64,000 bases of DNA. Origin: an uncultured virus (IMG/VR IMGVR_UViG_3300022928_000007) (Duplodnaviria; Heunggongvirae; Uroviricota; Caudoviricetes). The stretch is taken from IMG/VR virus record IMGVR_UViG_3300022928_000007, one strand, 5' to 3'. This document shows, piece by piece, positions 2,229 to 22,336 of the stretch. The notes beneath the pieces are model-generated. The model ran no database searches. It saw nothing but the letters and a program-made list of their open reading frames with translations, and was not told where the DNA came from. Position numbers and translations under genes: made by a program. Numbering within the stretch: position 1 is the first letter of the stretch; every line of letters starts with the position of its first letter.

Positions 2229-2681
2229 ATGGCAAGAGAGTTTGTAACAAGACATGGTTTATCGGTAAGTGGAAAGACTTTTATATCTACAGTTGACTTA
2301 GATGTAAACGTTAATTCTATCTTGGTACTTGACGGTGCGGAAGTTAAGTATAGAGATGTTTCTACTTTACCTAATACCAATATATATACAGACGATGGTA
2401 CACTTGATAGTGACCGTATTGTCGACCAAGATACTCATCACTTAACATTTAGTGGTGGAACAGGGGTATCTATTGGTACAGGAACTACATCTCCTGTATG
2501 TGCCTTATTAGAATTAGCGAGTGAGAGTCAAGGACTTTTAATTCCAAGAATGACTCAATCACAGAGACTAAATATAACAAATCCTTTACCAGGTTTATTG
2601 GTGTATTGTACAGACAATACTTCAAACGCTAAAGAGGGTATGTTTATGTATAAATCTTTAGGTTGGGTCAGCGTACTATAA
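2229..2681 (+). CDS. Short fibre/surface protein paralogue
   Basis: Likely start ATG 2229 (MAREFVTRHGLSVSG, matching MAHELVARNGLRVSG of 666). C-terminal QG(L/F)L.PRMT..QR..I..P..GL.VY.TD module shared with 2734..4827. Confidence 0.65.
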   Translation: MAREFVTRHGLSVSGKTFISTVDLDVNVNSILVLDGAEVKYRDVSTLPNTNIYTDDGTLDSDRIVDQDTHHLTFSGGTGVSIGTGTTSPVCALLELASESQGLLIPRMTQSQRLNITNPLPGLLVYCTDNTSNAKEGMFMYKSLGWVSVL

Positions 2682-2733
2682 CAGCCTTACTAATTATAAT
2701 GAGGATAAAAAACCAATTTAAAAACAAAAAACA

Positions 2734-4827: not shown

Positions 4828-4892
4828 TAAATGGGATTATTAATTTTAAGATAAATTGTATTGAAACTATTTATCATTAAACTATAATTAAC

Positions 4893-4920
4893 GGGAGAGA
4901 TTAATTTCTCTCCCATAGCC
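4893..4920 (+). promoter_or_regulatory. 5'-UTR stem-loop followed by TAGCC
   Basis: gggagaga-ttaatt-tctctccc, then atagcc and an A-tract before ATG 4939; same layout as 2181-2210. Confidence 0.4.
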
Positions 4921-4938
4921 AAAACAAAAAAAAATAAC

Positions 4939-6039: not shown

Positions 6040-6062
6040 AGAGGAGTTAATCCTCTTTTTTT
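6040..6062 (+). terminator. Intrinsic terminator
   Basis: agagga-gttaa-tcctct followed by a T run, after the fibre cluster. Confidence 0.6.
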
Positions 6063-6322: not shown

Positions 6323-7591
6323 ATGGCGCGTAAACCACAAACAATTTTTGTACAAATAGCCTCTTATCGAGACCCTGAGTTAGTAAATACTATTGAAAAT
6401 ATGATAGAGAATGCTAAGAGACCTCAGAACTTAGTATTAGGTATTTGTCGTCAATACCACCCTGAAGATGGGTTTGACAACTTAGATAAATACAGAGATG
6501 ACGAGAGATTCCGTATTAGTGATGTATTATATACTGAAGCTAAAGGGGTATGTTGGGCTCGTAATCAAGTTCAACAATTATATGGAGGGGAGATGTACAC
6601 CCTTCAAATCGATTCACATATGAGATTTGCACCTAATTGGGATGATGAATTAATAAAAATGGTTAAACAACTACAAGGGATGGGTATTCCAAAACCTTTA
6701 TTAACTGGTTATGTATCATCCTTTGACCCTGATAATGACCCTGAAGGTCGTGTACAAGAACCATGGAGAATGGTTTTTGATAGGTTTATACCTGAAGGGG
6801 CAGTATTCTTTTTACCTGAAACTATACCTAATTGGAAAGATTTAGATACACCTGTTCCTGCAAGATTCTATTCTGCACATATGTGTTTTACATTGGGAGA
6901 GTTTTCGGAAGAAGTACAACACAATCCTGAGTATTATTTTCACGGGGAAGAAATTTCAATTGCGGTTAGAGCGTTTACTTGGGGATATGACTTATTTCAC
7001 CCACATAAAACTTTAATATGGCACGAATATACTCGCAAGGGTAGAACAAAACAGTGGGATGACGATAGTACGTGGGGAGAAAAAAATAGTCATTCACACT
7101 TAACTAATAGAAAGTTATTTGGTATGGATGGAGAAGAACAAGAAGGTCATGAAGGTATATATGGTTTTGGTACTGAAAGAACTCTAAGACAATATGAAGA
7201 ATATGCGGGATTATTATTCTCTAAAAGAGCAATCCAACAACACACTATCGATAAACAATACCCACCTAATCCAGGTATTGAGGAATTTGGTAATGAAGAA
7301 GAGTGGTTAAATAGTTTCTCTTCAATATTTAAACATTGTATAGATGTTGGTTTTGACAAAGTCCCTGAGAAAGATTATGAATATTGGGTAGTGGCATTCC
7401 ATGGACAAGATGATAAGACATTGTTTAGAAAAGACGCAGATAAAAATGAAATAAATAGAATGTTAAATGACCCAGCTGGATACTGTAAGGTATGGAGAGA
7501 ATTTCCAACTGCTGAGAAACCTAAATATTGGGTTGTTTGGCCATACTCAACATCTAAAGGATGGTGTGACAGAATAACGGGTAATTTATAA
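6323..7591 (+). CDS. GT60-like polypeptide/hydroxyproline alpha-GlcNAc transferase (Gnt1/Gnt2-like)
   Basis: TIFVQIASYRDPEL, AKGVCWAR, LQIDSHMRF (DxH motif), FHGEEISIAVRAFTWGYDLFHP and WHEY match GT60 hallmarks. Confidence 0.85.
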   Translation: MARKPQTIFVQIASYRDPELVNTIENMIENAKRPQNLVLGICRQYHPEDGFDNLDKYRDDERFRISDVLYTEAKGVCWARNQVQQLYGGEMYTLQIDSHMRFAPNWDDELIKMVKQLQGMGIPKPLLTGYVSSFDPDNDPEGRVQEPWRMVFDRFIPEGAVFFLPETIPNWKDLDTPVPARFYSAHMCFTLGEFSEEVQHNPEYYFHGEEISIAVRAFTWGYDLFHPHKTLIWHEYTRKGRTKQWDDDSTWGEKNSHSHLTNRKLFGMDGEEQEGHEGIYGFGTERTLRQYEEYAGLLFSKRAIQQHTIDKQYPPNPGIEEFGNEEEWLNSFSSIFKHCIDVGFDKVPEKDYEYWVVAFHGQDDKTLFRKDADKNEINRMLNDPAGYCKVWREFPTAEKPKYWVVWPYSTSKGWCDRITGNL

Positions 7592-7599
7592 TAAGTAGT

Positions 7600-9171
7600 A
7601 TGGCAAATATATCATTTTATGGTTCACATAATGCTACTGTAGCTGTAGAAAAAGACGGAAAAGTAATAACGGTAATCGAAGTTGAAAGGTTTTTAACTAT
7701 GAAAAATGCTGGATACGCTCAGTATCTAATATCATATACTAGACCCTATTTACTAAAACATATTTTAAAATATATTGAAGACGAATACGGAATTTCAGAA
7801 TATGAAAATTGTTATTACTTAAATACAGATACTTTGGAAAATGGTACCAAAGTACATTATGAAAAATTAATACCCGCTAAACATTACCATAACTCACTAC
7901 ACCATTTAAGTCACGCCGCTTGTGGTCTTTATCAAACTGATTATAACGAAGCGTTGATTATTTCATTTGATGGAGGAGGTAATGATGGTTTTTTTAATGT
8001 GTATTTGGCTAAAGATAGAAATAATATTGAGTTATTGGATAAGTATAACTTAGATTTAGGTTTTCCTTATATGTCATTTGGTGATTATTTAGGTGACATA
8101 CGTAAAGAACCTGCACTTAATATTGGTAATTTGGTTTATGCGGGTAAAATAATGGGATTATGTTCTTATGGTAATGTAAATGAGGAGTGGTTACCTCATT
8201 TTGAAAATTATTATAGAAAAAAACCTGATGGTTTAAATTATAAAGATTATTTAAAAGATTTAAGTAAAGAAACGGGATTAGTCTTTGACATTAGTAATAG
8301 GATAACAGGTCAAACCGCTTGGGATTTAAGTAAAACCTCTCAAATTGCATTTGAGAATGTCTTTATGGAAATGGCACAACCTTTCTTAGACAAATATCCT
8401 AATTTACCGTTAATAACCGTAGGAGGATGCGCATTAAATATATTACTTAATACAAAATTAGAGAAAACATTAGACAGAGATGTTTTTGTACCACCAAATC
8501 CAAACGACTGCGGAATTGCTGCGGGTATGATATTAAATCATATTAAACCTAAAACTGCGATTGATTTAACATATGCAGGAACCGAAGTTTTAGATAAACA
8601 TACACTTATGTCTCATGTAGAAGAAAGAAGAGCTAAAGAATTGGATATAAAAACTTTGTCTCAAGACTTATCTGACGGAAGAATAGTTGGTGTTGTTAGA
8701 GGTACATCTGAACATGGACCAAGAGCTTTAGGTAATCGTAGTATTATTTGTAACCCTGCGTATCCTGATATGAAAGATATTTTAAATGCTAAAGTTAAAA
8801 ATAGAGAATGGTACAGACCATTCGCACCAGTTTGTAGACTTGAAGACGTTGAAAAATACTTCAACTTTTCAGGTGAAAGTAAGTGGATGAGTTTCTGTCC
8901 TACAGTTAAAGAAGAATGGAGAGAAAAACTAACTTCAATTACACACGTAGACGGTACCGCTAGAGTACAAACAGTAACTTATGAACAGAATCCTTGGTTA
9001 TATAATTTAATTGGAGAGTTTGAAAAAATATCAGGTATTGGAGTTCTGTTAAATACTTCTTTTAATGTAAACGGTAAACCTATATTAAGTAGATATACAG
9101 ACGCGTTACAAGTCTATGATAAAACTAAAATGGACGGTTTAGTCCTATCAGATTATTATTTTAAAAAATGA
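7600..9171 (+). CDS. O-carbamoyltransferase, NodU/CmcH family
   Basis: EVERF, HHLSHAA, DGGG, GKIMGL, GGCALN, PNDCG, EHGPRALGNRSI, KNREWYRPFAP, HVDGTARVQTV, LLNTSFN. Confidence 0.92.
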   Translation: MANISFYGSHNATVAVEKDGKVITVIEVERFLTMKNAGYAQYLISYTRPYLLKHILKYIEDEYGISEYENCYYLNTDTLENGTKVHYEKLIPAKHYHNSLHHLSHAACGLYQTDYNEALIISFDGGGNDGFFNVYLAKDRNNIELLDKYNLDLGFPYMSFGDYLGDIRKEPALNIGNLVYAGKIMGLCSYGNVNEEWLPHFENYYRKKPDGLNYKDYLKDLSKETGLVFDISNRITGQTAWDLSKTSQIAFENVFMEMAQPFLDKYPNLPLITVGGCALNILLNTKLEKTLDRDVFVPPNPNDCGIAAGMILNHIKPKTAIDLTYAGTEVLDKHTLMSHVEERRAKELDIKTLSQDLSDGRIVGVVRGTSEHGPRALGNRSIICNPAYPDMKDILNAKVKNREWYRPFAPVCRLEDVEKYFNFSGESKWMSFCPTVKEEWREKLTSITHVDGTARVQTVTYEQNPWLYNLIGEFEKISGIGVLLNTSFNVNGKPILSRYTDALQVYDKTKMDGLVLSDYYFKK

Positions 9172-10049
9172 AAACAAAGATAGTTACATTTTTATATTTT
9201 GGTATAAATGATTTTCCTTTTTATGGTCATAAAGTACAGGCCAGATGGCATAGGTACCAACACTCACTAGTACAGCTTTCAAAAATGAATATACCTATCG
9301 TATGTTATTGTGGAGGTAACATATATGACGAGTTAAATAAACATTTAATAAACAACGATGTAAAAAACGTTGAATTAAAAGTTAGAGAATTAGAAGATAT
9401 TAGACATAGTAAGGATATGATAAAAATAAAAGAAAAATATCCCGAAAAATTTAAATTTTATTTAGAGGTTGGATGGGCTAAAATTACTCTGATGGAAGAA
9501 GAAATGGAAGAAGATTTAGATTACCTATATTGGGTTGATGTAGGGTTATCTCATGTTGGATTATATCCTCATAGATATAATACTAATCCTGAATTGATAA
9601 CAGGAACTTCAACAAATAAGTATAGATATACTTTTGGTCACATTTTTAATCCTGATACATTTAATAAAATTAATAAATGGGTTGGAGAAAAATTGATTAA
9701 CCTAACTAACACGCAGTTTTTTCATTCTACTTCTGACCTTAACACTACTTTAGAAAAAAATCATAAATATAAATCATTAACTGTTGGAGGAATAATTGGA
9801 GGTCATGTTAGTAAATTAAATAGTTTTTTTAAAAGATTTGAAGATTATACACAGGTTTGTTTGAATAAAGAGTTTTTACTAAATCATGAAGCAATGATGT
9901 CTACAATGTCATACGATAAACCCGAAGATTACCAAACTTTTATATTTGATACATGGTATCACGAAGACACACCTGACCCAGGAGTTGATGAAAATTTCTT
10001 AAAAGGAAAAATAAGTTTTTACACTTTTTTTGAAAAAATAAAAAAATGA
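9168..10049 (+). CDS. HtrL/YibB(WlaTC)-like putative glycosyltransferase
   Basis: KIVT..Y, WAK, YLYWVDVG, GGIIGG, NHE.MM pattern; paralogous to the middle domain of 10573..12945. Confidence 0.6.
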   Translation: MKTKIVTFLYFGINDFPFYGHKVQARWHRYQHSLVQLSKMNIPIVCYCGGNIYDELNKHLINNDVKNVELKVRELEDIRHSKDMIKIKEKYPEKFKFYLEVGWAKITLMEEEMEEDLDYLYWVDVGLSHVGLYPHRYNTNPELITGTSTNKYRYTFGHIFNPDTFNKINKWVGEKLINLTNTQFFHSTSDLNTTLEKNHKYKSLTVGGIIGGHVSKLNSFFKRFEDYTQVCLNKEFLLNHEAMMSTMSYDKPEDYQTFIFDTWYHEDTPDPGVDENFLKGKISFYTFFEKIKK

Positions 10050-10573
10050 AAGATTTAAATAAAATATATCCACAACTAAGAAACCTTGATACTAACCTAA
10101 ATAATTTAGATGGTTGGTCATTATCCATAGAATGTTTTCATTGGATATATAACAATATTGAAAAAGGTTCAAACATTATTGAGATAGGTAGTGGACATGG
10201 TACTATGGAACTATCTAAACATTTCAACACTTACAGTTTAGAACATCAAGAAAGATTTACAAAGTTGGCTCGTAAGGCTAATTACATATTAACAGAATTA
10301 GTAGATGGTTGGTATGAACCTGAAATAGTTTTTAATTCTTTACCTGAAGAATATTCACTAATTATTGTTGATGGACCACCTAATTTAGGTCAAGAAAAAA
10401 CAAGAAATAATATTAAAAAATATTGGGACAGATTTGATACTTCAGTACCTATAATTATGGATGATACTCATAGAAAAGATGAGTATGACTTTGCTATTGA
10501 AACTGCAGAAGAATTAAATAAGGAGTGGACTCAATATGAAGGTTGGCAAAAAAACTTTATAGTTTTAACATAA
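10046..10573 (+). CDS. Class I SAM-dependent methyltransferase
   Basis: IIEIGSGHGT (motif I), SLEH, LIIVDGPP, IIMDD..R. Confidence 0.75.
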   Translation: MKDLNKIYPQLRNLDTNLNNLDGWSLSIECFHWIYNNIEKGSNIIEIGSGHGTMELSKHFNTYSLEHQERFTKLARKANYILTELVDGWYEPEIVFNSLPEEYSLIIVDGPPNLGQEKTRNNIKKYWDRFDTSVPIIMDDTHRKDEYDFAIETAEELNKEWTQYEGWQKNFIVLT

Positions 10574-12945
10574 TGATAGAATTAAAAAAAACAGATTACT
10601 TTAATGATGCATTACATTATTTAGGTAAAAAAGGTAAAAAACTTTTTACACTTAATATTGGTGCTATGGATGGTATAACATTCGATGAAATGTCGGGTTA
10701 CATAAAAATGTATAATTTTAAAGGATTGTATGTTGAACCTATACCGGTCTATTATGATTTATTAAAAGAAAATTATAGTGAGGGAGGTAATTTGTTTGAA
10801 AATTCGGCAATTTCCGATTATGACGGTGAAATAACGATGTTAACCATTGATAAGTCAGTAATTGACCAAGGGTTAGTACATCCAGCTTTTTTAGGTATGA
10901 GTGCAATTTACCCACCAAAGAATGGATTAGGTAGTGAGGGTGACCGTGAAGTTGTTAAAAAATATGGTAAAAAAATTACAGTACCCTGTATCACATTCGA
11001 TAACCTATTAAGTAAACATAATATAGAAAATTTTGATGTGGTTAAGATTGATGCTGAAGGTCATGATTACAATATATTTAAACAGATAGATTTAATAAAA
11101 TATAGACCAAAAGTAGTAAGAGCAGAATGGTCAAGTATTACAGATGAAGAAAAATCACAATTAATTACTCAATTAGATAATGCTAAATACATTTATGGTA
11201 TTGAGGCAGATGATATTGTCGGAATAACTGATGATTTATTTGATGAAATTTATAATAAAAAAGAAAAAATGAATAATAGTGGAGTTACAATAGTTACAGG
11301 TTTATGGGATATAAAAAGAGGAGAATTATCAGAAGGATGGTCACGTAATTATGATTATTACTTAGAAAAATTTTCACAACTATTAGAAATACCTAACAAC
11401 ATGATTATTTTTGGTGATGAAGATTTAAAAGAATTTGTCTTCCAACGAAGAAGTCATGAAAATACTCAATTTATAGTAAGACCTCAGAGTTGGTTTAAAG
11501 GAGAGTTCTATGAGCCGATTCAAAAAATAAGAACCGATGAAAAATGGTTCAATCAAGTAGGATGGTTGGCACATTCAACACAAGCTAAATTAGACTTATA
11601 TAATCCATTAGTTATGTCTAAACCTTACATCTTACATGATGCTAAGATTATGGATAAATTTAAGTCAACACACTTATTTTGGTTAGATGCTGGTATTACA
11701 AATACAGTACATAGTGGATATTTTATCAATGATAAGGTGTTAGATAAAATGAATACTGTTGATAAAATTACATTTATTGCTTTTCCTTATGAGACAAATA
11801 CTGAAATTCATGGGTTTGAATATAAAAAATTAAATGAATTAGCAACCAAAAAGGTTGAGAGAGTTTGTAGAGGAGGTTTTTTCGGTGGTCCAGTTGAAGA
11901 TATTGGTGATTTTAATATGGAGTATTATAATTTAATGAAAAGTACTTTAAATAACGGATATATGGGAACTGAAGAATCACTGTTTTCAATACTATTATAT
12001 AGATATCCTGAAAATTATCAGTACTTCCCAATAGATGGTAATGGTTTAATTAATAAGTTCTTTGAGGAAGTTAAAAATAATACTCACAAACCCCTAAGTG
12101 AATCTAAAATTAAAGTAATTAAGAATAAGTTAGATATTAATAAAACCGCACTTTATATAATAACATTTAATAGTCCTAATCAAGTTAAAACCTTAATTAA
12201 GTCTATGAAAGAATATGACGAGGATTTTATAAAAAAACCACAATGGATTTTATTAGATAATTCTACAGATTTAAGTACGACCCCTGAATATAAAAAAATA
12301 TGTGATGAATATGATATTATTCATGTTAAAAAAGACAATTTAGGTATTTGTGGTGGTAGACAATGGGTTGCGGAACATGCAGATGAGAATGGTTATGATT
12401 ATTATTTCTTTTTTGAGGACGATATGTTCTTTTATCCTAAAAAAGGTGAAGTTGGTAAAAACGGATTTAATAGATATGTTGAAGGTCTGTATTTAAAATC
12501 TTTACAAATAGCAAAGAAAAATAACTTTGATTTTTTAAAGTTATCTTTTACTGAATTCTATGGTGATAATAGAAATCAGTGGGCGTGGTATAACGTACCA
12601 CAAGATTTTAGAGAATCCCATTGGCCTGAGAAACCTAATCTTCCCGTCCAAGGACTAGACCCTAACGCACCTAAGACAAAAATCACTAAAATAGATTCAT
12701 TTGGAGGTATACCTTATGCTCATGGTGAAATTTACTATTGTAATTGGCCTCAAGTGGTTTCTAAACACGGTAATAAAAAAATGTTTTTAACTGAAAAATG
12801 GGTAAGACCTTTTGAACAAACATGGATGTCTTATATGTTTCAAGAAACCGTAAAAGGTAATATTAATCCAGGTATTTTACTACTTACACCAACAGAACAC
12901 GATAGATTTGACCACTATGACGGGAAATTAAGAAAAGAGTCTTAA
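10573..12945 (+). CDS. Fusion: FkbM methyltransferase + HtrL/WlaTC-like domain + GT-A glycosyltransferase
   Basis: NIGAMDG, VEP, KIDAEGHD (FkbM); TIVTGLWDI, FWLDAG, GGFFGG, GTEES (HtrL-like); LLDNS, NLGICGGR, FFEDD (GT2-like). Start ATG 10573. Confidence 0.8.
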   Translation: MIELKKTDYFNDALHYLGKKGKKLFTLNIGAMDGITFDEMSGYIKMYNFKGLYVEPIPVYYDLLKENYSEGGNLFENSAISDYDGEITMLTIDKSVIDQGLVHPAFLGMSAIYPPKNGLGSEGDREVVKKYGKKITVPCITFDNLLSKHNIENFDVVKIDAEGHDYNIFKQIDLIKYRPKVVRAEWSSITDEEKSQLITQLDNAKYIYGIEADDIVGITDDLFDEIYNKKEKMNNSGVTIVTGLWDIKRGELSEGWSRNYDYYLEKFSQLLEIPNNMIIFGDEDLKEFVFQRRSHENTQFIVRPQSWFKGEFYEPIQKIRTDEKWFNQVGWLAHSTQAKLDLYNPLVMSKPYILHDAKIMDKFKSTHLFWLDAGITNTVHSGYFINDKVLDKMNTVDKITFIAFPYETNTEIHGFEYKKLNELATKKVERVCRGGFFGGPVEDIGDFNMEYYNLMKSTLNNGYMGTEESLFSILLYRYPENYQYFPIDGNGLINKFFEEVKNNTHKPLSESKIKVIKNKLDINKTALYIITFNSPNQVKTLIKSMKEYDEDFIKKPQWILLDNSTDLSTTPEYKKICDEYDIIHVKKDNLGICGGRQWVAEHADENGYDYYFFFEDDMFFYPKKGEVGKNGFNRYVEGLYLKSLQIAKKNNFDFLKLSFTEFYGDNRNQWAWYNVPQDFRESHWPEKPNLPVQGLDPNAPKTKITKIDSFGGIPYAHGEIYYCNWPQVVSKHGNKKMFLTEKWVRPFEQTWMSYMFQETVKGNINPGILLLTPTEHDRFDHYDGKLRKES

Positions 12946-12974
12946 TAAAAAAGACACAAAATCGCATATGCGAT

Positions 12975-12982
12975 TATTTATA
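12975..12982 (+). promoter_or_regulatory. TATTTATA candidate late promoter
   Basis: Same 8-mer recurs just upstream of several structural-type genes. Confidence 0.45.
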
Positions 12983-13000
12983 TAGAAAGTATTTTGTTAT

Positions 13001-16000
13001 ATGGTAGGATATAAAGTAGGACAAAAAGTTTTATTACTTGATGGTACCCTTTTGAATATTGAAGATGTTCAAGAAGGTATGTTCCTGCAAACCATTGTTT
13101 TACCAAATGATAAAGACCATAAAGATTCTAAAAATTGGTCAAGTAAGGAAATAGAAGGGTTAGAATTTACATCTTCGGAAGTCAACAAAGTATCGACTGA
13201 AAATCAAGATTATATAACTATTAATGAATTATCTTTAAAGGATAAGGAGATTTTGGTTTATAATACAATAACCGAAGAGTTTCAATTTAAAAATGTTAAT
13301 GATTTATATATCGGTAATGACTATAAGTTAGTTAGAATCACAGATGATAGTATACTATTAGAAAACATTTATAACTACGAACAATCCACAGATGAACAAG
13401 ATTTAATCTCTATAAGTTTACACGGACCCTTTCATTATCTATTAGATGGATATGTAGTACATAATGTTGGTACTATATGTATTCAAAACTGTCAAAATAC
13501 TTCACTCATTGCTTGTATTAATAATACTAATAATTTAATCGCGGGTACTACAGGTTTTGTTGATGGTAATGGTTCTTGTTGGAGAGCAATAAGTGATTGT
13601 TTGAGTTGTACGCCTACACAAAGTTTTATAGGTTCAATCGCTTCCATATGGTTAGGGAATAGTTGCTTTAGTTGTCCTGGTGATTCTGGAACAACTCCTG
13701 TTGATAGTGGTGATATACAAATTCTTAGTGCACCTTGTAGGTTTAGATTACAAAAATGTTCATTGGATATAGGTGCAGGGTGTCCATCAGGTGAAGAACC
13801 TGGTTTATGTAGTTACCCTTTACATAATCAATGGGTAGAGTTGAATTCACCGTCTTTAGTACCATGTCCCCATATTGGTTCAGTGGTAAAAGTAAATAGT
13901 CCGGCACCAAATGACGACTGTTGTTATGTTGTTATCGATGTTGACGATAAGGCCGTACCTGTAGGAACTGTTCAAGTTACTCAAGTTTTTGAGGATTGTA
14001 CTGAATGTTGTGCAGACGGAGAAGTAACACCAACACCAACTGTTACCCCTACTCCTACACCAACGGTTAGTTATGGTAGGTATATTGCAGGCAAATGTTG
14101 TGACGAATCTTTTCTAATTGAAGTTAATGCACCTATAAATGTAGTTGCGGGTGCGACCTTTGTAATTAATGATGAATGTTATGAAATAATACAATCAGGA
14201 GGTAATGGAGGTATTATCGTAAATCCTGATAATGAAGTGGATTGTAAAACATGTGAAAAAGCATTCCCATGTTCTGAAGACCCAACACCGACACCAACGG
14301 TCACACCGACAATTACTCCCGAATCAAGTCCTGCCCCTACTGAAACCCCTACCCATACACCAACTATAACTCAAACTGTAACTCCAACCACAAGTGTTGA
14401 TTATAGAGAACTACAAATAAAAGATTGTTGTACTAATACACTGACTAAAGTAATATTATATCCTGATGCGCTTGCAGATGATGCTATTACTAATGGTCAT
14501 GTTTTCGTTATAGGTGGTTGTTGTTATTACGCAGCTAAGAGAGGTGGTTCAAGTCCTGTTGGTCAGTTTAGTACTTATGACTATGAAGATTGTGAGGAAT
14601 GTTATGAAAAAGAAAATGGTTGTAATAGTTGGGAGTTAGAATTAGAAGATTGTTGTGATTTTTCTACATTAACTATTAGAGTTACAGTGGCGTGTTTACC
14701 TGATGGTATTAAACCGAGTACTCAATACGGTGGTTTTATAACATGGAATGGAGATTGTTATAGAATTACTAATGAAACTGTCACAGCAACAGGTAATGAC
14801 GGTGAAGTTGGTCCTGACGATTTCTTTTCCAGTTGTGAGTCTTGTGGTACGTGTCCAACACCGACAGTTACAGTAACACCAACCGTTACAGTTACCCCTA
14901 CAAATACACCTACCTCTACGGCTGAAGCTACACCAACACCTAAACCTACTAATACTCCACCAAACACCCCACCTGTGACACCAACTAATACTCCAACACA
15001 AACTGCTGAAGTAACATCAACCCCAACTGAAACGCCTACTAATACCCCAACATTTACTCCTACTAACACTCCAACAGTAACCGCAGAGGTAACTGTTACT
15101 CCTACTGAAACTCCAACTAATACTCCTACAGTAACTGCTGAGGTAACGTCTACACCAACGGAGACCCCGACTAATACTCCTAAACCGACTGAAACACCAA
15201 CAGAAACACCAACTAATACTCCTACTCAAACTGCTGAGGTTACAACTACCCCTACAGAAACCCCAACTAATACGCCAACTCAGACGGCGGAAGTTACAAC
15301 TACACCTACAGAAACCCCAACTAATACTCCTACTAATACTCCTAAACCGACTGAAACACCAACAGAAACTCCAACTAATACTCCAACGCAAACTGCGGAA
15401 GTCACTAGTACGCCTACAGAAACCCCAACTAATACGCCAACTCAGACTGCGGAAGTAACATCAACACCTACAGAGACCCCTACTAATACTCCGACACAAA
15501 CTCCACCTGTCACTCCAACTAACACACCAACGAACACACCTACTAATACTCCAACTATAACTGCAGAAGTCACGGTAACTCCGACTGAAACACCTACAGA
15601 AACTCCAACCAATACTCCAACTCAAACTGCTGAGGTTACAACAACGCCAACTGAGACTCCAACTAATACACCTACTCAAACTGCTGAAGTAACATCAACA
15701 CCTACTCAAACTCCTACTAATACCCCAACAGGAACACCACCTGTTACTCCTACTAATACACCAACTGAGACTCCAACTAATACACCTACTCAAACTGCGG
15801 AAGTCACTATAACGCCTACTGTAACTCCAACTAACACTCCAACTGTTACTGCTGAAGTTACTCTTACTCCAACTGAAACACCGACTAATACTCCTACTCA
15901 GACTGCAGAAGTCACTAGTACCCCTACGGAAACTCCAACTAATACTCCAACAGAAACACCACCTGTAACTCCAACTAATACTCCTACTCAGACTGCAGAA

Positions 16001-19000
16001 GTCACTAGTACTCCTACAGAAACTCCTACTAACACACCTACAGGGACTGCTGAGGTTACCACAACGCCTACTGTAACTCCAACTAATACTCCTACTCAGA
16101 CTGCAGAAGTAACTAGTACCCCTACAGAAACTCCTACTAACACACCTACAGAAACTCCGACTAATACACCAACAGGTACACCGGGAACAACTCCTACTAA
16201 CACTCCTACTCAAACAGCTGAAGTAACATCAACCCCAACTGAAACGCCTACTAATACTCCGACACAAACTGCAGAGATTACAACAACACCAACTGAGACT
16301 CCAACTAATACTCCTACAATAACTGCTGAAGTCACAACTACTCCGACTGTAACTCCAACTAATACTCCTACTCAAACAGCAGAAGTTACCACAACTCCAA
16401 CGGTTACTCCTACTAACACCCCTACTCAAACTGCTGAAGTCACAACTACTCCGACTGTAACTCCAACTAATACTCCTACTCAAACAGCAGAAGTTACCAC
16501 AACTCCAACGGTTACTCCTACTAACACCCCTACTCAAACTGCTGAAGTCACAACTACTCCGACTGTAACTCCAACTAATACTCCTACTCAAACTGCAGAG
16601 GTAACATCAACACCAACAGTTACACCTACTAATACTCCAACTCAAACCGCTGAAGTCACATCAACTCCAACTGAAACCCCTACTAATACTCCAACTCAAA
16701 CTGCAGAAATTACAACTACTCCGACAGAAACTCCTACTAATACTCCTACTATTAGTCCAACTTTAACTCCAACAGGTACACCGGGAACCACACCTACTAA
16801 CACGCCAACTGTAACTGCAGAGGTAACTGTTACTCCAACAGAAACCCCAACTAATACGCCAACTCAGACTGCGGAAGTTACTATTACCCCTACGGAAACT
16901 CCAACCAATACTCCAACTCAAACTGCTGAAGTAACATCAACACCAACGGTTACTCCAACCAATACTCCTACAGAGACTCCAACCAATACTCCTACTAGTA
17001 CTCCTGAAGTTACTACTACCCCTACAGGTACACCAGGAACTACACCAACTAATACGCCTACAACAACTGCTGAGGTGACATCCACTCCAACGGTTACTCC
17101 TACTAATACTCCTACTCAGACTGCGGAAGTTACAACTACTCCGACAGAAACTCCTACTAATACTCCTACTCAAACTGCTGAAGTAACATCAACACCAACA
17201 GTTACACCTACTAATACTCCAACTAATACATTGACTTCTACCCCAACGGGTACACCGGGAACCACACCTACTAACACGCCAACTCAGACTGCAGAAATAA
17301 CATCTACTCCAACGGTTACTCCAACTAATACTCCAACTGTTACCGCTGAAGTTACTCTAACACCAACTGAAACGCCTACTAATACTCCGACAGGAACTGC
17401 TGAGGTTACATCAACTCCTACTGTAACTCCAACAAATACCCCTACAAATACTTTGACCAACACTCCTACAGGTACACCAGGAACTACACCAACAAATACA
17501 CCTACAACAACTGCAGAAATTACGTCAACACCAACGGTTACTCCAACTAATACTCCAACTGTTACCGCTGAAGTTACTCTAACCCCAACTGAAACACCAA
17601 CTAATACTCCAACGCAAACTGCGGAAGTAACGAGTACACCTACTGTCACACCGACTAATACTCCTACTAATACTTTGACTAATACTCCTACGAGTACGCC
17701 AGGAACTACACCAACAAATACACCTACAGTAACTGCTGAGGTAACGAGTACACCAACTGTTACGGTAACTAACACTCCTAGTGGTACGGCTCAGGTTTCT
17801 AGTACCCCTACAGTGACTCCAACAAATACTCCAACATTAACTCCGACTATTACTCCTACTGATACTCCAGGGGCAAGTGTTACACCAACACCAACAATAA
17901 CTGATACTCCAACAGAAACACCGACCAACACACCAACACAAACATTAACACCATCACCAACGCCACCAGAACCTTCTTCAGGATGTACTGCAGTTATAAC
18001 AACAGGTACAACTACTACATCAACACCGACACCTACTCCAACATTAACACCAACACCACAGCCAGGTACACCTGTTGGTGGTGAAGTTACATTTATAATT
18101 GATGAGGGTTATTTTGATTGTGGTGAAGTTGCAAAATTAATTAACTGTAACCCCAATGAAAAAGACCAAGAATTTTATGTAACACTTCCAATAAGTTATA
18201 GTGGGGGTACAATAACTTCAGGTACTACATTTAATGGTACTATTGATACTATTGAAAGGTGTTTAACATTTGTGGAGGAAATTGAAGGTTCATCTACCCA
18301 TATATTAACCTCAGTTAATAGTGTTGATGCGGATTGTAATGATTGTCAGACACCTGACCCAACGCCAACACCTAATATAATAAGTGTTTTTGAAAAATGT
18401 GGAGAGATTGGTTGTGTTGAAAATGATATAACATTTGGTGAACTAACTAACCCAGAAGATATTGTGAATAATTGGACACGATTCTCATATTTTGCAAGTC
18501 ATATATTCCCTGGTACAAATCAAGAAAGTGGGTTACAACCTAACGGAACTATAATCACTAATGACCCACAGTATTATTTCTATACGGGAGTAACTAATAC
18601 AAAATATTTAGGTGTTTATAATACAAACATGGTAGAAGGACAAAATACTGGACCTGCCGGATTAGCAGCCCCATTCGGATGTACAGGATGTAATGCAGGG
18701 GGTGATAATGGTAAATTTTATTTTAACACAACGATAAATAAGTTTGTGGTTTGGTGGAATGTTGGTCAACCAGGGTGGGCTTGGACAACATTTAATCCAA
18801 CAGTTAATTTAGGTCAGGCTTTGGGTAACCCAACAGCCTCACAATTATTAACCACGTCAACTAATTGGAATGTACCACTTTTAACTAGTGGAGTAGGACA
18901 AACTAAATATACTGTTTCAGGTTCTTCAAATACAGTAGTCGGGGCTATTGCCAAAATAACTAACGCTGGAGGTGTCCCTAAGATGATTGAGTGTTCACAA

Positions 19001-20182
19001 AACAGTGGGTTAAACAATGGATTTTATTCAACATGTGGATTTAGTAATTATACTCATGAGGTTACAGTCGGAAGTACCGCAAACGATAATGATAATATTG
19101 GAATTGTTTTATCAACTATAAAAGATGATGAAGGTTTATATGGCCCTTCAGGTTCTACACAATCATTATTATTAAACTTTAATTCACAATATGATAGAGC
19201 GACTATAACCTATAATAGTAATGATAAAACATTGGCGTTTACTGATGGTACTGACTTTTCTTCATCAGTATGGCAAGGAACATCACCTTTCTCAGGTGAC
19301 TCAAATAATTTAGGAACCCCAACGTACAATTTTTATTCAAAACAAGGTGATGTAAGAGTTAAGATTATTAAAACGGGAACAACAATAACTATATTTACCA
19401 CTAAAATGATGGGTGATACTAGTACTATATTACCTCAGTGTACTGATTGTGTGGAGCCTGGAGACCCTAACCCATATACTCAGTTAGTTTCTATAGACCT
19501 AAATGATGTAAATACTTGGACCGCGGCACCTGCTTACGCCACAGGTAATGAATTAATTAAATTTGCGAATAAAGGTAAGATTGGATATCATACATATTCT
19601 CAACCAAAAACCCAATTTTATGATATTATATTCTCAGGTTCACAATTAACAAATACAGATACATTATACGGAATAAATGTTAATAATCCTGGAGCTAATA
19701 ACGTATCTACATTTAATGAGGTACCGGGATGTTGGGAATATATACAAGATATCACGGGATACACTGGTAGTACATATTCATTAACATTAGATACGGGTTA
19801 TCCAACATGTACTCAATGTCCAACAGATAATCAACCTTTACCTTCACCAACACCACAACCTTCACCAACACCAACAGTACAGTATTCTTCATTGGGTACT
19901 TTCTTTGGTCTTCATGGGGGTGGTTCATCACAACCATGTGGAGCATTTAATGGTGGAAATGTACCATCTACAGAATATTTTACAGATGTAACCCCAGTCG
20001 CATTTTCAGGATGTCCGACAGGTAATTCTGTATATACTTATAATAGTTTTTCAGGAAATTATCAGTTAATTGGTAATGGAGCCTTTGTTTCAAGTGCGGG
20101 ATGTGCATATAATGTTAGTGGAGGTGTCGTTACATCATTCTCGCCATGTACGAATGGTGATTGTGGTCCGACAAGTTGTTAA
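13001..20182 (+). CDS. Giant mucin-like protein: N-terminal Hint domain, Cys-rich modules, ~1000-aa Thr/Pro stalk, lectin-like C-terminal region
   Basis: 2393 aa; Hint motifs at aa 3-155 ending VVHN; CC/CxxC modules; [18 protein letters not shown] repeats; DNDNIGIVL and [10 protein letters not shown] resemble the thrombospondin C-terminal/ConA-like fold. Confidence 0.75.
14855..18070 (+). repeat. Coding Thr/Pro tandem repeat array (12- and 54-bp based units)
   Basis: Continuous PT(N/E/V/Q)T tetrapeptides and 18-aa [13 protein letters not shown](S/T)TPT(E/V) units. Confidence 0.95.
16321..16593 (+). repeat. Exact 108-bp tandem repeat, ~2.5 copies
   Basis: Unit starting aactgctgaagtcacaactactccgactgt recurs at 16321, 16429 and 16537. 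Confidence 0.9.
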
Positions 20183-20272
20183 AATTTAAACTAAAATGAA
20201 TAAAAAAAGAAAGATACTTATAATAAAATAACATGTTCACTTAACAATCGGAGTGATTATAATATATAAAAT

Positions 20273-22336
20273 ATGACAAATGTAACAATAAATACGGCAT
20301 CAGGAACACCACCATTTAATATATGGATGGCAAATGATTGTACCCCTAATGCGACTACATTATTTGTTGATACAGTTACTGTATTTCCATATACTTTTAC
20401 TGTACCTACACCGTATCAAAATGTACCATTTTGTGTTAAGTTAATTGATAGTGATAATTGTGAGGTTTGTGAATGTTTTGGTTTTGGTCCAACTCCAACA
20501 CCATCAGTTACTGCTACTGTTACTCCTACAAACACTAACACTCCTACACCTACACCAACTGTTACTCCATCAGGTCCATGTCCAACTCCGACCTATTATT
20601 ACGGTTCATTTACAGGAAACGGATTTACAGATAGTGCGACATATACCTTATCTACTATATTACATAACGGAAGAGCTCAATGGGTGTCACCTAATAATGG
20701 GTCTATACAATGGACGGGAAATAGATGGGAAGTAACAGGATGGAATTTGGCTACATTAATATTTTATAATCTTAACCCCACTCCTAATTCACCCGATACG
20801 GTTAATTGGAACTATCAAGGATGTTTCCGAGGATTCACATGTGCAGTATCATTTACCTCAAGTGGATGTGGTTACCCAACACCAACACCAACATCTACTG
20901 CCACAGAGACGCCGACAGTTACACCTACTATAACTGATACTCCTTCTATTACTCCAACTAATACCCCTACTATTACTCAAACTGCAACACCAACTAACAC
21001 TGCAGGTGTAAGTGCAACTCCAACTCCAACTAATACTTTAACACCAACAGTAACAGCTGAGGTTACTCCTACCATAACTTCAACTATTACTGCAACACCG
21101 ACTCAGACTCCTGAATCTACCCCTGGTACCACACCTACTAACACTCCTACAGTAACGGCTGAAGTTACGTCTACACCAACAGAAACACCTACTAATACTC
21201 CTACTCAAACTCCTGAATCTACTCCAGGTGTTACACCTACTAATACACCAACGGTAACTGCTGAGGTAACGTTGACACCGACTCAAACTCCTGATGTTAC
21301 ACCTACTAATACTCCTACAGTAACTGCTGAAATAACACGAACACCAACAGAAACACCTACAAATACACCAACAAGAACCCCTAAAGAAACTCTTACACCT
21401 ACTCCGACTCCTGAGTCTACACCAAATCCTACAGATACGCCAACTAATACACCAGAGGTGACACCGACTAATACTCAAACACAAACGCCTGAAGTCACTT
21501 CAACACCTACTAATACACCTGTAGTAACCCCTACAAGTACTCAAACTCCTACACCTACTAATGCCACTATATCGACATATATTGCATGTGCAGCAGACGC
21601 TACACCTAGTACAGGTGATTTAATGGTTGCACCAACATCTTTCAATACTACAGTAACTGATGCTGATTTTGTCGAGTTTGAATTTACAATTACAAATGTT
21701 CAAAACCAAACATTTACTATTACCGAATGTTACAAAAAAATTGATTATGATGAATCACAATCAATACTCAATCCAACTATAAGTGCTATTAATAGTGACT
21801 GTAGTAATGGTACTAAATGTGAAGTAGTACATGTATTGGCTGAAGGTTGTACTGGTGGAAAAAATATAATAGTACAAATGGGAACGGCTTACGCAGCCAC
21901 ATTAGTGAGTGGTGATACTTTAAGTGCGGCTAGATTAGCGGGAATTGCATCAGTCGCGACTCCGATTATACAGACTCAAGGTACTAATACTTGTTATACT
22001 TTAGGTGGTAAGACTAGTGTTATAACTACTAGTCAAAATAATAATTCTACGGGTGTTGATTGGACTGATACATCAAATAGAACAGCAGTCGTGACTAATT
22101 GTTCAGACAATTATTGCGGTTGTAAAACAGGATTTACAGTTCTAAATTCTAGTAGTTCACCAATAACACTAAACGCTAAAGTTTGTGCGGGTGACACAAT
22201 TCAATTAACTATTCCAGCTTCAGGTGAATTAACTGTTAATGATTGTATAAACATGAATGCTTTTTGGGTGGCAGTATTAAGTAGTGGTAGTACATCGTTT
22301 ATCACTATTGGACCCGGAACTTATAACGACTGTTAA
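20273..22336 (+). CDS. Second mucin-like Thr/Pro, Cys-rich putative virion protein
   Basis: 687 aa; Cys-rich N-terminal module (GTPPFNIW...[10 protein letters not shown]), TPT stalk ~20875-21570, Cys-rich C-terminus. Confidence 0.7.

What the first reader, a model, noticed from the sequence alone, without database searches (positions are those of the whole stretch)
6323..22336. Candidate phage-encoded mucin-type O-glycosylation system: GT60 operon directly upstream of giant Thr/Pro substrates
Seen: five tightly linked genes (GT60-like GlcNAc transferase, NodU/CmcH carbamoyltransferase, HtrL-like protein, SAM methyltransferase, FkbM/HtrL/GT-A fusion) lie inside the structural region. They sit between fibre genes and two proteins carrying hundreds of Thr in PT(V/E/N/Q)T repeats. 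Known: GT60 enzymes are best characterised in protists, where Dictyostelium Gnt2/ModB adds alpha-GlcNAc to PTVT repeats of PsA/SP29 and Trypanosoma cruzi OGNT initiates mucin O-glycans on Thr. NodU carbamoylates GlcNAc of Nod factors. Inference: the phage builds a carbamoylated, methylated O-glycan on mucin-like virion fibres, a viral glycocalyx for stiffening, protease resistance, adhesion or shielding.
Basis: partly seen in the sequence, partly recalled or inferred. Interest (0 to 1): 0.92.

Follow-up and report, generated by a model that had tools for sequence, protein, structure and literature searches.

The report
Phage sugar-coating genes beside mucin-like proteins
An uncultured giant bacteriophage carries a soluble enzyme of the family that starts mucin-type sugar chains, followed by sugar-extending and sugar-decorating enzymes and then two huge threonine/proline-repeat proteins, so it probably sugar-coats its own appendage proteins, although no sugar has been measured.

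Summary
Window 6323-12945 encodes five same-strand, near-abutting genes. They are a GT60/PF11397 transferase, a NodU/CmcH-type carbamoyltransferase, an HtrL-like protein, a 175-aa protein, and an FkbM-HtrL-GT-A fusion. Two proteins follow, with 645 and 176 threonines in TPTxT repeats.

The GT60 model is closest in fold to the animal polypeptide GalNAc-transferases that start mucin O-glycans (Z 18.5-21.3, the top 29 entries). In 49 of 52 assessable related phage contigs, a Thr/Pro-rich gene abuts the cassette. Between the conserved GT60 and HtrL/GT-A genes, relatives carry 1-7 different glycosyl-, fucosyl-, sulfo- and methyl-transferase genes. The island is therefore hypervariable, and carbamoylation is this phage's own version.

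A cultured bacterium, Jiulongibacter sediminis, holds the same cassette around a Thr/Pro protein. Published Schiff staining shows glycoproteins in virions of phage XacN1, a GT60 carrier.

Three things are not shown: any sugar on these proteins, their presence in virions, and a methyltransferase role for the 175-aa protein. Three of five near-complete Thr/Pro-repeat phage genomes lack GT60.

Best reading, at 0.6: a phage-encoded mucin-type O-glycosylation system. This scan reached the same reading on at least eight other genomes.

The parts
666..6012 (+). Four fibre-like genes upstream (666-2105, 2181-2681, 2734-4827, 4939-6012), with internal Gly/Thr-rich repeats and shared C-terminal motifs
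   Evidence: The translations show repeated 'FITGGT..' units. There is no Pfam hit. Residues 235-350 of the last gene are 56% identical to a 'putative tail fiber-like protein' of Flavobacterium phage vB_FspM_immuto. Homologues lie upstream of GT60 in L002, L003, L018 and L036.
6040..6056 (+). Terminator-like hairpin with a T-run after the last fibre gene, at the start of the 310-nt gap before GT60
   Evidence: The total count of such sites is not above shuffles (13 against 10.4), so this is weak evidence. The sequence was read.
6323..7591 (+). GT60-family glycosyltransferase (422 aa), soluble, the proposed initiator. The catalytic domain is about residues 3-336, followed by an unassigned beta-rich C-terminal domain of about 100 aa.
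   Evidence: PF11397 E 3.6e-66 and phrog_24687 2e-165. The AF2 model has pLDDT 91. The top 29 PDB entries are all ppGalNAc-Ts, Z 18.5-21.3. D97-S98-H99 and H234 are invariant in 22 of 22 sequences. There is no hydrophobic segment (maximum KD 0.88).
7600..9171 (+). NodU/CmcH-type O-carbamoyltransferase (523 aa), an accessory decoration gene
   Evidence: PF16861 3e-62 and PF02543 2.1e-21. phrog_1601 1.8e-122. The NodU equivalog model scores 166.8 bits, far below its 1000-bit cut-off. The gene is present in only 6 of 80 close IMG/VR loci and in 8 of 14 XacN1-clade loci.
9168..10049 (+). HtrL-like protein (293 aa), a probable extra GT-A-type transferase
   Evidence: No Pfam hit. BLASTP against the fusion's HtrL domain gives E 1e-6. 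hhalign of A2 against A1 gives probability 99%, E 2.9e-18.
10046..10573 (+). 175-aa protein of a large unnamed family, possibly a divergent class-I methyltransferase-like module linked to glycan genes
   Evidence: No HMM hit. The nearest named ESM Atlas cluster is Methyltransf_24, on 17% of its members, score 0.94. The family has 1000 or more representatives at E<=1e-3. In 17 of 27 long relatives scanned it is fused to glycosyltransferase domains (GT2 in 11). In 3 of 39 proteins scanned the matched region carries a weak methyltransferase hit. hhalign against the positional methyltransferases of relatives gives probability 1.8%.
10543..12945 (+). Three-domain fusion: FkbM methyltransferase (residues 39-216), HtrL_YibB domain (247-494) and GT-A domain (about 530-800). 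The likely true start is the ATG at 10573.
   Evidence: Pfam. The AF2 model of residues 240-800 has pLDDT 89.7. The HtrL domain aligns to GT6 enzymes (BoGT6a, blood-group A/B transferases; Z 12.7-13.2). The C-terminal domain aligns to B4GALNT1, POMGnT1 and GnT-I (Z 14.1-14.8). The HtrL+GT-A part is found in 75 of 80 IMG/VR loci.
13001..20182 (+). Giant modular protein (2393 aa), the proposed acceptor. It has an N-terminal Hint-like domain, Cys-rich modules joined by PT linkers, an 1100-aa [18 protein letters not shown] repeat tract (residues 604-1704) and a 689-aa C-terminal region.
   Evidence: The non-repeat parts have no Pfam family. The C-terminal part has only 4 homologues in 5.8 billion proteins. 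There is a weak phrog_33406 'tail fiber protein' hit, E 0.0055.
20273..22336 (+). Second Thr/Pro-repeat protein (687 aa; repeat tracts at residues 63-124 and 189-445), also a proposed acceptor
   Evidence: phrog_15511 (unknown function) 6e-10.
22353..24275 (+). SprB-repeat protein (640 aa) directly downstream, a likely surface or adhesin-type module
   Evidence: PF13573 4.9e-11.
36611..37534 (+). dTDP-glucose 4,6-dehydratase-like enzyme, a possible supplier of 6-deoxy-sugar nucleotides. A second epimerase/dehydratase lies at 40483-41403.
   Evidence: PF01370 3.5e-54. TIGR01181 6.3e-88, below the equivalog cut-off. The link to the cassette is inference only.

Best explanation
This is a phage-encoded, cytoplasmic, mucin-type protein O-glycosylation island.

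Shown: the GT60 enzyme is soluble, has an intact DxH metal site, and has the fold of the polypeptide GalNAc-transferases.

Inferred from the known activities of family GT60: it uses UDP-GlcNAc to put a first HexNAc on Thr (or Ser) hydroxyls of the TPTxT repeat stalks of the two proteins encoded directly downstream.

Inferred from predicted folds: three further GT-A-type domains extend the sugar. These are the 293-aa HtrL-like protein, the GT6-like HtrL domain and the C-terminal GT-A domain of the fusion.

Inferred from family: the FkbM domain O-methylates a sugar, and the NodU/CmcH-type enzyme O-carbamoylates one, using carbamoyl phosphate and ATP.

The product would be a densely glycosylated, extended, protease-resistant stalk carrying the globular Cys-rich and C-terminal modules of what are probably virion appendages.

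GT60 and the HtrL/GT-A protein form the conserved core. Everything between them is swapped among relatives for fucosyl-, galactosyl-, sulfo- and methyl-transferases. The glycan is therefore under diversifying selection, much as an O-antigen locus is.
For: 1. Family. PF11397 scores 224.5 bits against a cut-off of 21. Passages read in two reviews say GT60 enzymes are polypeptide alpha-GlcNAc-transferases that start mucin-type glycans in Dictyostelium and T. cruzi, and that Gnt1 acts on Skp1 hydroxyproline (PMC8724618; PMC6939170).

2. Fold. The model has pLDDT 91. The top 29 PDB entries by VIA-align are all ppGalNAc-Ts (Z 18.5-21.3, 264-321 residues aligned). Generic GT-A enzymes follow at Z<=17.1.

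3. Adjacency.
- In 49 of 52 assessable IMG/VR loci (33 of 35 clusters at 95% GT60 identity), a Thr/Pro-rich ORF ends or starts within 1 kb of the cassette.
- My rough chance estimate from genome G002 is about 5% (7 such ORFs in 295 kb).
- Thr/Pro-flagged residues reach 101 per kb just upstream of GT60. They fall to 14-18 per kb at -6 to -8 kb, against a genome baseline of 6-9 per kb.
- The adjacent ORFs fall into 16 homology groups by their non-repeat parts.

4. Deep recurrence. Two loci with GT60 at only 39% identity to the window (L139, L141) have a 404-aa Thr/Pro ORF directly upstream. Cultured Jiulongibacter sediminis has GT60 (55%), carbamoyltransferase (73%) and the FkbM/HtrL/GT-A fusion (62%) around a 262-aa Thr/Pro protein, between non-phage genes.

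5. Reverse test. Of 69 contigs picked only by a TPTxTPTxTPTxTPT coding pattern, 9 have GT60 within 10 kb. A further 6 of 15 checked whole have it elsewhere on the contig.

6. The variable region. Of 85 ORFs scanned, 51 have a Pfam hit. Apart from two DUFs, all hits are to glycosyl-, sulfo-, methyl- or nucleotidyl-transferase families.

7. Experiment in a carrier. Schiff staining shows at least two glycoprotein bands in XacN1 virions. The authors propose its two glycosyltransferases, ORF328 and ORF334; ORF334 is the GT60 gene (PMC5852040, passages and Suppl. Fig. S4 legend).

8. None of the five enzymes has a membrane-like segment. This fits action in the cytoplasm, where virions are built.
Against: - No sugar, donor or acceptor has been measured for any member of this phage family.
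- The Thr/Pro proteins are not shown to be in virions. Their non-repeat parts match no family.
- Much of the adjacency is inherited synteny. Of the 71 adjacent Thr/Pro ORFs, 42 belong to one homology group.
- In the complete genome G003, GT60 lies about 100 kb from the Thr/Pro gene cluster.
- In the XacN1 clade, Thr/Pro content near the cassette is modest in most of 14 loci.
- Three of five near-complete genomes chosen for Thr/Pro repeats have no PF11397 gene. One of them (L222) has no recognisable glycosyltransferase within 10 kb of the repeat gene.
- Among low-GC bacterial-assembly loci, only 5 of 16 assessable have a strong Thr/Pro ORF within 1.5 kb. L161, where the ORF lies inside the cassette, is additional.
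- GT25, GT10 and GT11, seen in relatives, are families also used for lipopolysaccharide.
- The XacN1 glycoprotein bands were not identified in the text I could read.
Confidence: 0.6

Rival explanations
1. The island builds a glycan on something other than the Thr/Pro repeats. Candidates are another phage protein (capsid, sheath or the upstream fibres), or a lipid-linked or envelope glycan of the infected cell, as in seroconversion or superinfection exclusion. The Thr/Pro genes would then be neighbours only through inherited gene order in a tail-fibre region.
For: - 42 of the 71 adjacent Thr/Pro ORFs share one homology group.
- GT60 is not adjacent to the Thr/Pro genes in G003.
- Relatives carry GT25, GT10 and GT11. 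HtrL/YibB is named after a gene of the E. coli LPS-core region (family description; the location is recalled).
- XacN1's glycoprotein bands are unidentified.
Against: - All characterised GT60 activities cited are on polypeptides.
- The fold is closest to the mucin-initiating GalNAc-Ts.
- Adjacency recurs with non-homologous Thr/Pro proteins (16 groups), with GT60 at 39% identity and in a bacterial chromosome.
- The reverse test enriches GT60 among Thr/Pro-repeat contigs.
- The enzymes have no membrane segment.
Confidence: 0.2
2. Attachment is to hydroxyproline rather than threonine. The phage's P4H-like 2OG-Fe(II) oxygenases (28999-29610 and 29754-30389) would hydroxylate Pro in the repeats. 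GT60 would then add GlcNAc to Hyp, as PhyA and Gnt1 do on Skp1.
For: - GT60 includes Gnt1, which is soluble like the phage enzyme and acts on Hyp.
- Two 2OG oxygenases with OGFOD2-like and 2OG-FeII_Oxy_3 domains lie 7 kb downstream.
Against: PF13640 is absent from two complete GT60-bearing phage genomes (G003, G007) and from G008, and present in G001 and G002. Hydroxylation therefore cannot be a general requirement. The oxygenases are not part of the cassette in any of the 80 loci examined.
Confidence: 0.1
3. The island glycosylates phage DNA, as a hypermodified-base glycan that protects against restriction.
For: - The C-terminal GT-A domain has weak hits to the TET-associated glycosyltransferase (PF20691, E 1.6e-3, 18.9 bits) and to phrog_842, beta-glucosyl-HMC-alpha-glucosyltransferase (6e-6).
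- Replication genes lie nearby, both here and in XacN1.
- Phage glycosyltransferases that build DNA glycans are cited in PMC12619734 (reference list passage).
Against: - The PF20691 hit is below its 27.5-bit cut-off.
- No ThyA-family hydroxymethylase and no TET/JBP gene is found in G002 (98% complete) or G003 (complete), both of which carry the core cassette.
- The GT60 fold and family are protein-directed.
- Sulfo- and fucosyl-transferases in relatives fit a glycoprotein glycan better.
Confidence: 0.05

Closest known systems
Protist CAZy GT60 polypeptide alpha-GlcNAc-transferases (Dictyostelium, Trypanosoma cruzi) and Gnt1 (the Skp1 hydroxyproline GlcNAc-transferase)
   Same: Same Pfam family (PF11397, 224.5 bits). 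GT-A catalytic domain with a DxH motif. Acceptors rich in Thr/Pro, by analogy. Soluble, as Gnt1 is.
   Different: Viral and bacterial rather than eukaryotic. It carries an extra C-terminal beta-rich domain of about 100 aa that the Pfam model does not cover, and which is duplicated in L125. Donor, linkage and acceptor are untested.
Animal GT27 polypeptide GalNAc-transferases (mucin-type O-glycan initiators)
   Same: Closest solved folds: Z 18.5-21.3 over 264-321 residues, the top 29 entries. Two-domain layout, with a catalytic domain and a C-terminal beta domain.
   Different: Only 10-14% identity. No sequence match to any PDB chain. The C-terminal domain is much smaller than the ricin-type lectin domain, and its fold was not searched on its own.
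Virion glycosylation in mycobacteriophages
   Same: Phage-encoded glycosyltransferases next to structural genes modify the phage's own proteins. I know this only from the passage in PMC12619734 that cites Freeman et al. 2023; the paper itself is not held.
   Different: There the glycans sit on the C-termini of capsid and tail-tube subunits. Here the proposed acceptors are kilobase-long Thr/Pro repeat stalks, the initiator is a GT60, and the island is hypervariable.
Giant-virus self-glycosylation (chlorovirus PBCV-1 Vp54; mimivirus collagen glycosyltransferases such as R699)
   Same: The virus encodes its own multi-enzyme glycan machinery, including fused glycosyltransferase-methyltransferase proteins (PBCV-1 is recalled and is cited in PMC5852040). 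The tandem GT-A model also matches mimivirus R699 and human LH3 in Foldseek.
   Different: A bacterial virus. O-linkage to Thr-rich repeats is proposed instead of N-linked Vp54 glycans or hydroxylysine.
Xanthomonas phage XacN1 ORF334-ORF330 cluster
   Same: Same gene order: GT60 (47.7% identity), carbamoyltransferase, HtrL-like, HtrL/GT-A. Virions stain for glycoprotein.
   Different: XacN1's carbamoyltransferase has a 240-aa C-terminal extension, and there is no FkbM domain. The nearby giant ORF325 carries only short PT linkers. The authors named the gene only 'glycosyltransferase family protein'.

Membership tests
CAZy GT60 / Pfam PF11397 (GlcNAc) | Match to the family HMM above the curated cut-off | tested here: met
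   224.5 bits against a cut-off of 21, E 3.6e-66, profile positions 96-349 plus a second stretch.
CAZy GT60 / Pfam PF11397 (GlcNAc) | GT-A fold related to the GT27 polypeptide GalNAc-transferases | tested here: met
   AF2 model pLDDT 91. ppGalNAc-Ts fill the top 29 entries, Z 18.5-21.3. Foldseek E 3.5e-10.
CAZy GT60 / Pfam PF11397 (GlcNAc) | DxH/DxD-type metal-binding motif with a downstream His | tested here: met
   D97-S98-H99 and H234 are invariant in 22 of 22 aligned phage sequences. That these residues are the metal ligands is an analogy recalled from GT27, not tested.
CAZy GT60 / Pfam PF11397 (GlcNAc) | Transfers alpha-GlcNAc from UDP-GlcNAc to Thr/Ser or Hyp of a polypeptide | not testable with these tools
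   Only indirect evidence: conserved adjacency to Thr/Pro-repeat genes.
NodU/CmcH/TobZ-type O-carbamoyltransferases | Both Carbam_trans_N and Carbam_trans_C domains | tested here: met
   PF02543 77.2 bits and PF16861 209.6 bits, both above their cut-offs.
NodU/CmcH/TobZ-type O-carbamoyltransferases | Orthology to NodU itself (NCBIfam equivalog NF041651) | tested here: not met
   166.8 bits against a cut-off of 1000. It is a family member, not NodU.
HtrL_YibB (PF09612) | HMM match above the cut-off | tested here: met
   The fusion scores 67.8 bits against 24.1. The TIGR02192 equivalog cut-off is not reached (80.7 against 264.9). The 293-aa protein has no direct Pfam hit, but hhalign to the fusion's HtrL family gives probability 99%.
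FkbM methyltransferases (PF05050) | HMM match above the cut-off | tested here: met
   63.6 bits against 22.7, residues 39-216 of the fusion. TIGR01444 scores 49.2 against 37.7.
Class-I SAM methyltransferase (the 175-aa protein) | Match to any methyltransferase profile | tested here: inconclusive
   No hit in Pfam, PHROGs or NCBIfam. hhalign to RMNT_CmcI-type neighbours of relatives gives probability 1.8%. The ESM lead is Methyltransf_24. Weak methyltransferase hits overlie the matched region in 3 of 39 relatives.
Phage DNA glycosyltransferases (TAGT, PF20691) | HMM match above the cut-off, and a hydroxymethyl-base pathway in the genome | tested here: not met
   18.9 bits against 27.5. G002 and G003 have no PF00303 or PF12851 gene. 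G001, which is this genome, has one ThyA-family gene.
Mucin-like acceptor domain | Long tandem repeats rich in Thr/Ser and Pro | tested here: met
   A 1100-aa tract, with 27% Thr and 12% Pro over the whole protein and 190 TPT motifs. An 18-aa repeat unit. Whether it is glycosylated cannot be tested with these tools.

The most novel reading that the evidence does not exclude
Aquatic jumbo phages, and some bacteria, carry a hypervariable 'glycotype' island, the protein-glycan counterpart of an O-antigen locus. A conserved GT60 initiator and a tandem GT-A enzyme bracket swappable fucosyl-, galactosyl-, sulfo-, methyl- and carbamoyl-transferases. Together they write strain-specific mucin-type glycans on kilobase-long Thr/Pro stalks of virion appendages. 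That would give phage particles a true, fast-evolving glycocalyx that governs adhesion, shielding or recognition. With more than 7000 protein clusters of this GT60 in public data, it would be one of the commonest protein-glycosylation systems in viruses.
Probability: 0.35. Interest if true: 0.9.

Novelty: new variant of a known kind. Interest (0 to 1): 0.76.

Why it matters
Glycosylation of a phage's own particle has been shown experimentally only in a few cases. Mucin-type initiation by GT60 enzymes is described as a protist trait. If this island works as proposed, mucin-like glycoproteins and their initiating enzyme are widespread in bacterial viruses: more than 7386 protein clusters at 90% identity match at E<=1e-5. 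The glycan part would also vary like a serotype locus. That bears on how phages stick to surfaces and mucus, on how they resist proteases and recognition, and on where the eukaryotic mucin-type pathway came from. It also offers soluble, single-chain enzymes for glyco-engineering of Thr/Pro peptides. The idea is directly testable: the enzymes are soluble, and a cultured, harmless bacterium (Jiulongibacter sediminis) carries the same cassette next to a small Thr/Pro protein.

Tried and rejected
- Near-identical DNA search in the phage collection found nothing. The window's own assembly is not held. Record G001 is the same genome, but it starts at window base 17048, inside the repeat, so it lacks the cassette.
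- Sequence searches of the PDB with GT60, the fusion and the two HtrL profiles gave no meaningful match.
- Pfam and PHROGs on the non-repeat parts of the two Thr/Pro proteins gave no family, apart from weak PHROG hits. The C-terminal part has only 4 homologues, so I did not fold it.
- The methyltransferase reading of the 175-aa protein was tested by hhalign and failed.
- The hydroxyproline route was tested by co-occurrence and is not general.
- The DNA-modification reading was tested through hydroxymethylase and TET genes and is not supported.
- The Thr/Pro metric is unreliable above about 55% GC, because alternative-frame ORFs score. I therefore left out the 51 high-GC bacterial loci from the counts.
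- Literature searches for this system in print found nothing specific: GT60+phage, GT60+Dictyostelium+GlcNAc (46), carbamoyltransferase+phage+glycosyltransferase+hypermodif (51), HtrL+glycosyltransferase+phage (52), Gnt1+Skp1+bacteriophage (70), and phage+O-glycosylat+threonine-rich+glycosyltransferase+virion (81).
- Freeman et al. 2023 is not held.
- I did not use complex prediction, read mapping or sequencing-run searches.

Full report
WHAT IS THERE

The window is part of an uncultured jumbo phage. It has PHROG hits to primase, exonuclease and a RuvC-like resolvase. It is 100% identical to IMG/VR record G001 from window base 17048 onward. G001 is 169 kb and CheckV rates it 56% complete.

All genes from 666 to 32050 lie on the + strand. 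After four fibre-like genes (666-6012) comes a 310-nt gap that begins with a terminator-like hairpin. Five near-abutting genes follow.

- 6323-7591: PF11397 (GT60), E 3.6e-66.
- 7600-9171: both carbamoyltransferase domains.
- 9168-10049: no Pfam hit.
- 10046-10573: no Pfam hit.
- 10543-12945: FkbM plus HtrL_YibB plus a weak GT-A-type hit. This gene more likely starts at the ATG at 10573.

Two more genes follow. A 2393-aa protein has 645 Thr and an unbroken 1100-aa tract of [22 protein letters not shown] units. A 687-aa protein has 176 Thr. The DNA repeat has a 54-nt period with only 66-72% matching between copies, so the repeats are old and kept at the protein level. In the roughly 186 kb of this genome that I could read, no other ORF comes near this Thr/Pro content.

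THE ENZYMES

GT60.
- The match is full length to phrog_24687 (2e-165).
- An alignment of 22 phage sequences, reaching down to 40% identity, keeps D97-S98-H99 and H234 invariant.
- The AlphaFold model (pLDDT 91) is closest to the polypeptide GalNAc-transferases that start animal mucin O-glycans. All of the top 29 PDB entries by VIA-align belong to them (Z 18.5-21.3, 264-321 residues aligned). Generic GT-A enzymes begin at Z 17.1. Foldseek agrees.
- Passages read in two reviews state that GT60 enzymes are the polypeptide alpha-GlcNAc-transferases that start mucin-type glycans in Dictyostelium and T. cruzi, and that Gnt1 puts GlcNAc on Skp1 hydroxyproline.
- The phage enzyme has no hydrophobic segment.
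- It carries an extra C-terminal beta-rich domain of about 100 aa, outside the Pfam model and duplicated in L125.

The 293-aa protein is an HtrL-like paralogue (hhalign probability 99%, E 2.9e-18).

The fusion. The model of residues 240-800 (pLDDT 89.7) shows two GT-A domains.
- The HtrL domain aligns to GT6 enzymes: BoGT6a and the blood-group A/B transferases, Z 12.7-13.2.
- The C-terminal domain aligns to B4GALNT1, POMGnT1 and GnT-I, Z 14.1-14.8.
- These Z values do not stand clear of other GT-A folds. They show the fold, not a specificity.

The 175-aa protein stays unassigned.
- It belongs to a large family: 1000 or more representatives at E<=1e-3.
- In 17 of the 27 long relatives scanned it is fused to glycosyltransferase domains, GT2 in 11 of them.
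- The methyltransferase idea rests only on a Gly-rich motif, an ESM lead and weak overlapping hits in 3 of 39 relatives.
- hhalign to the methyltransferases that hold the same position in relatives failed.

COMPARATIVE EVIDENCE

Distribution. The GT60 has more than 7386 relatives at E<=1e-5 and 519 confirmed stretches in IMG/VR. The best 80 of those (71-92% identity) were kept.

Which genes travel with it. Among those 80 loci:
- the HtrL/GT-A part is found in 75;
- the 293-aa protein in 46;
- the carbamoyltransferase in 6;
- the 175-aa protein in 2.
Some loci are cut by contig ends, which lowers these counts. GT60 plus HtrL/GT-A is therefore the core, and carbamoylation is an accessory.

The variable region. 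Between the two core genes, relatives carry 1-7 small genes. Of 85 such ORFs from 35 cluster representatives, 51 have a Pfam hit:

| Family | ORFs |
|---|---|
| GT25 | 10 |
| GT10 fucosyltransferase | 8 |
| PLOD-type GT | 4 |
| GT2 | 4 |
| GT7C | 2 |
| GT11 | 1 |
| GT1 | 1 |
| Sulfotransferases | 4 |
| FkbM | 5 |
| CmcI / Methyltransf_24-type methyltransferases | 9 |
| Sugar nucleotidyltransferase | 1 |
| HtrL | 1 |
| DUFs | 2 |

One ORF counts under two families. The other 34 ORFs have no hit. This is a hypervariable glycan-building island.

Adjacency in close relatives.
- A Thr/Pro-rich ORF (60 or more flagged residues) ends or starts within 1 kb of the cassette in 49 of 52 loci with at least 1.5 kb on both sides. 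That is 33 of 35 clusters at 95% GT60 identity.
- Twenty-eight loci were dropped for short flanks or because the HtrL/GT-A gene is not downstream on the same strand. L019 and L069 are among them.
- With a stricter rule (the immediately upstream same-strand ORF), the count is 39 of 67 loci.
- Thr/Pro-flagged residues are 101 per kb just upstream of GT60 and 14-18 per kb at -6 to -8 kb. Whole-genome baselines are 6-9 per kb.
- The adjacent ORFs form 16 homology groups by their non-repeat parts, and one group holds 42 of 71. Much of the signal is therefore shared ancestry.

Adjacency further out.
- Two loci with GT60 at 39% identity to the window have a 404-aa Thr/Pro ORF directly upstream.
- In bacterial assemblies, 388 relatives were found. 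The closest, at 75%, sit in Saprospiraceae bins, which hints at the host.
- Among 16 assessable low-GC loci, 5 have a strong Thr/Pro ORF within 1.5 kb.
- In cultured Jiulongibacter sediminis, a 262-aa Thr/Pro protein lies inside a locus of two GT60 genes, a carbamoyltransferase (73% identical to the window's) and the same three-domain fusion. UDP-glucose dehydrogenase and ordinary chromosomal genes lie beside it.

Reverse test. Of 69 distinct IMG/VR contigs picked only by a TPTx-repeat coding pattern, 9 have GT60 within 10 kb. Of 15 further large ones checked whole, 6 have it elsewhere on the contig.

COUNTER-EVIDENCE

- In complete genome G003, GT60 is about 100 kb from the Thr/Pro gene cluster.
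- In the XacN1 clade, Thr/Pro content near the cassette is mostly modest.
- Three of five near-complete Thr/Pro-repeat genomes lack PF11397. One of them shows no glycosyltransferase within 10 kb of its repeat gene.
- The Thr/Pro proteins are not shown to be virion parts.

EXPERIMENT IN A RELATIVE

Xanthomonas phage XacN1 has the same gene order: GT60 at 47.7% identity, then carbamoyltransferase, HtrL-like and HtrL/GT-A genes. The cluster sits beside a baseplate region and a 3313-aa protein with PT linkers. Its describers saw at least two Schiff-positive bands in virion proteins and proposed the phage's two glycosyltransferases as the cause (PMC5852040: main-text passages and the legend of Suppl. 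Fig. S4). The bands were not identified in any text I could read.

RIVALS

DNA glycosylation is unlikely.
- The TAGT hit is below its cut-off.
- Two near-complete genomes that carry the core cassette have no ThyA-family or TET/JBP gene.

Hydroxyproline attachment is possible here but not general. Two P4H-like oxygenases sit at 28999-30389, but such genes are absent from two complete carriers.

A non-protein or different protein acceptor cannot be excluded.

VERDICT

A phage-encoded mucin-type O-glycosylation island acting on the adjacent Thr/Pro stalks is the best-supported reading (0.6).
- Shown: gene content, family, fold and association.
- Inferred: donor, linkage, acceptor, virion location and the order of steps.

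I found nothing in print that describes this system. Earlier agents of this scan reached the same reading on at least eight other genomes. Their notes are not independent evidence.

Noticed in passing
window 57824-59257; G001 47887-60777 (= just beyond the window end, about 64.9-77.8 kb on the window scale); window 28999-30389: A possible second protein-glycosylation system. A PLOD-type glycosyltransferase domain (PF25342, E 3.6e-75) lies about 6 kb before three large ORFs (1292, 1727 and 1280 aa) with collagen-like G-X-Y runs of 17-25 triplets. The genome also has P4H-like 2OG oxygenases. This resembles the hydroxylysine glycosylation of collagen-like proteins in mimivirus.
   Followed up: partly
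window 13001-13525: The first 175 residues of the giant Thr/Pro protein look like a Hint/intein-type domain that ends in DGYVVHN. Pfam gives no hit. The nearest named ESM Atlas clusters carry PT-HINT, Intein_splicing and Hint (score 0.92, 173 shared features). The motif is kept in the L016 homologue. It could mean self-cleavage of the protein.
   Followed up: partly
window 7280-7588 (GT60 residues about 320-422); L125:10001-11716: GT60 carries a conserved beta-rich C-terminal domain outside the Pfam model. It is present twice in L125. It may bind the acceptor, as the lectin domain of GalNAc-transferases does. Its fold was not searched on its own.
   Followed up: no
L161:6965-7753 (-): The Jiulongibacter Thr/Pro protein starts with an Arg-Arg motif followed by a hydrophobic stretch. 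By eye this looks like a twin-arginine export signal. That would allow export after glycosylation in the cytoplasm.
   Followed up: no
window 17048: The public record of this phage (G001) begins exactly inside the repeat tract of the giant gene. The assembly broke in the repeats, so that record lacks the glycosylation cassette.
   Followed up: yes
L242:12983-20494 (-): A GT60-less phage with a 971-aa Thr/Pro protein (Laminin_G_3 domain) has, directly after it, ten tightly packed ORFs of 137-348 aa. Only one has a hit (GT1, E 1e-6). This may be a different glycan cluster.
   Followed up: partly
window 33386-33811 (-), 44269-45078, 53041-53994, 61828-62964, 55084-56001: Host-like genes in the same window: a CorA C-terminal fragment, a sigma-70 factor, a full DnaJ, a glutamine-synthetase-like gene and a Dam-type methyltransferase.
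   Followed up: no
L001:13412-15709: The carbamoyltransferases of XacN1 and its clade are about 765 aa long, with a 240-aa C-terminal extension that the window's 523-aa enzyme lacks. The extension was not analysed.
   Followed up: no
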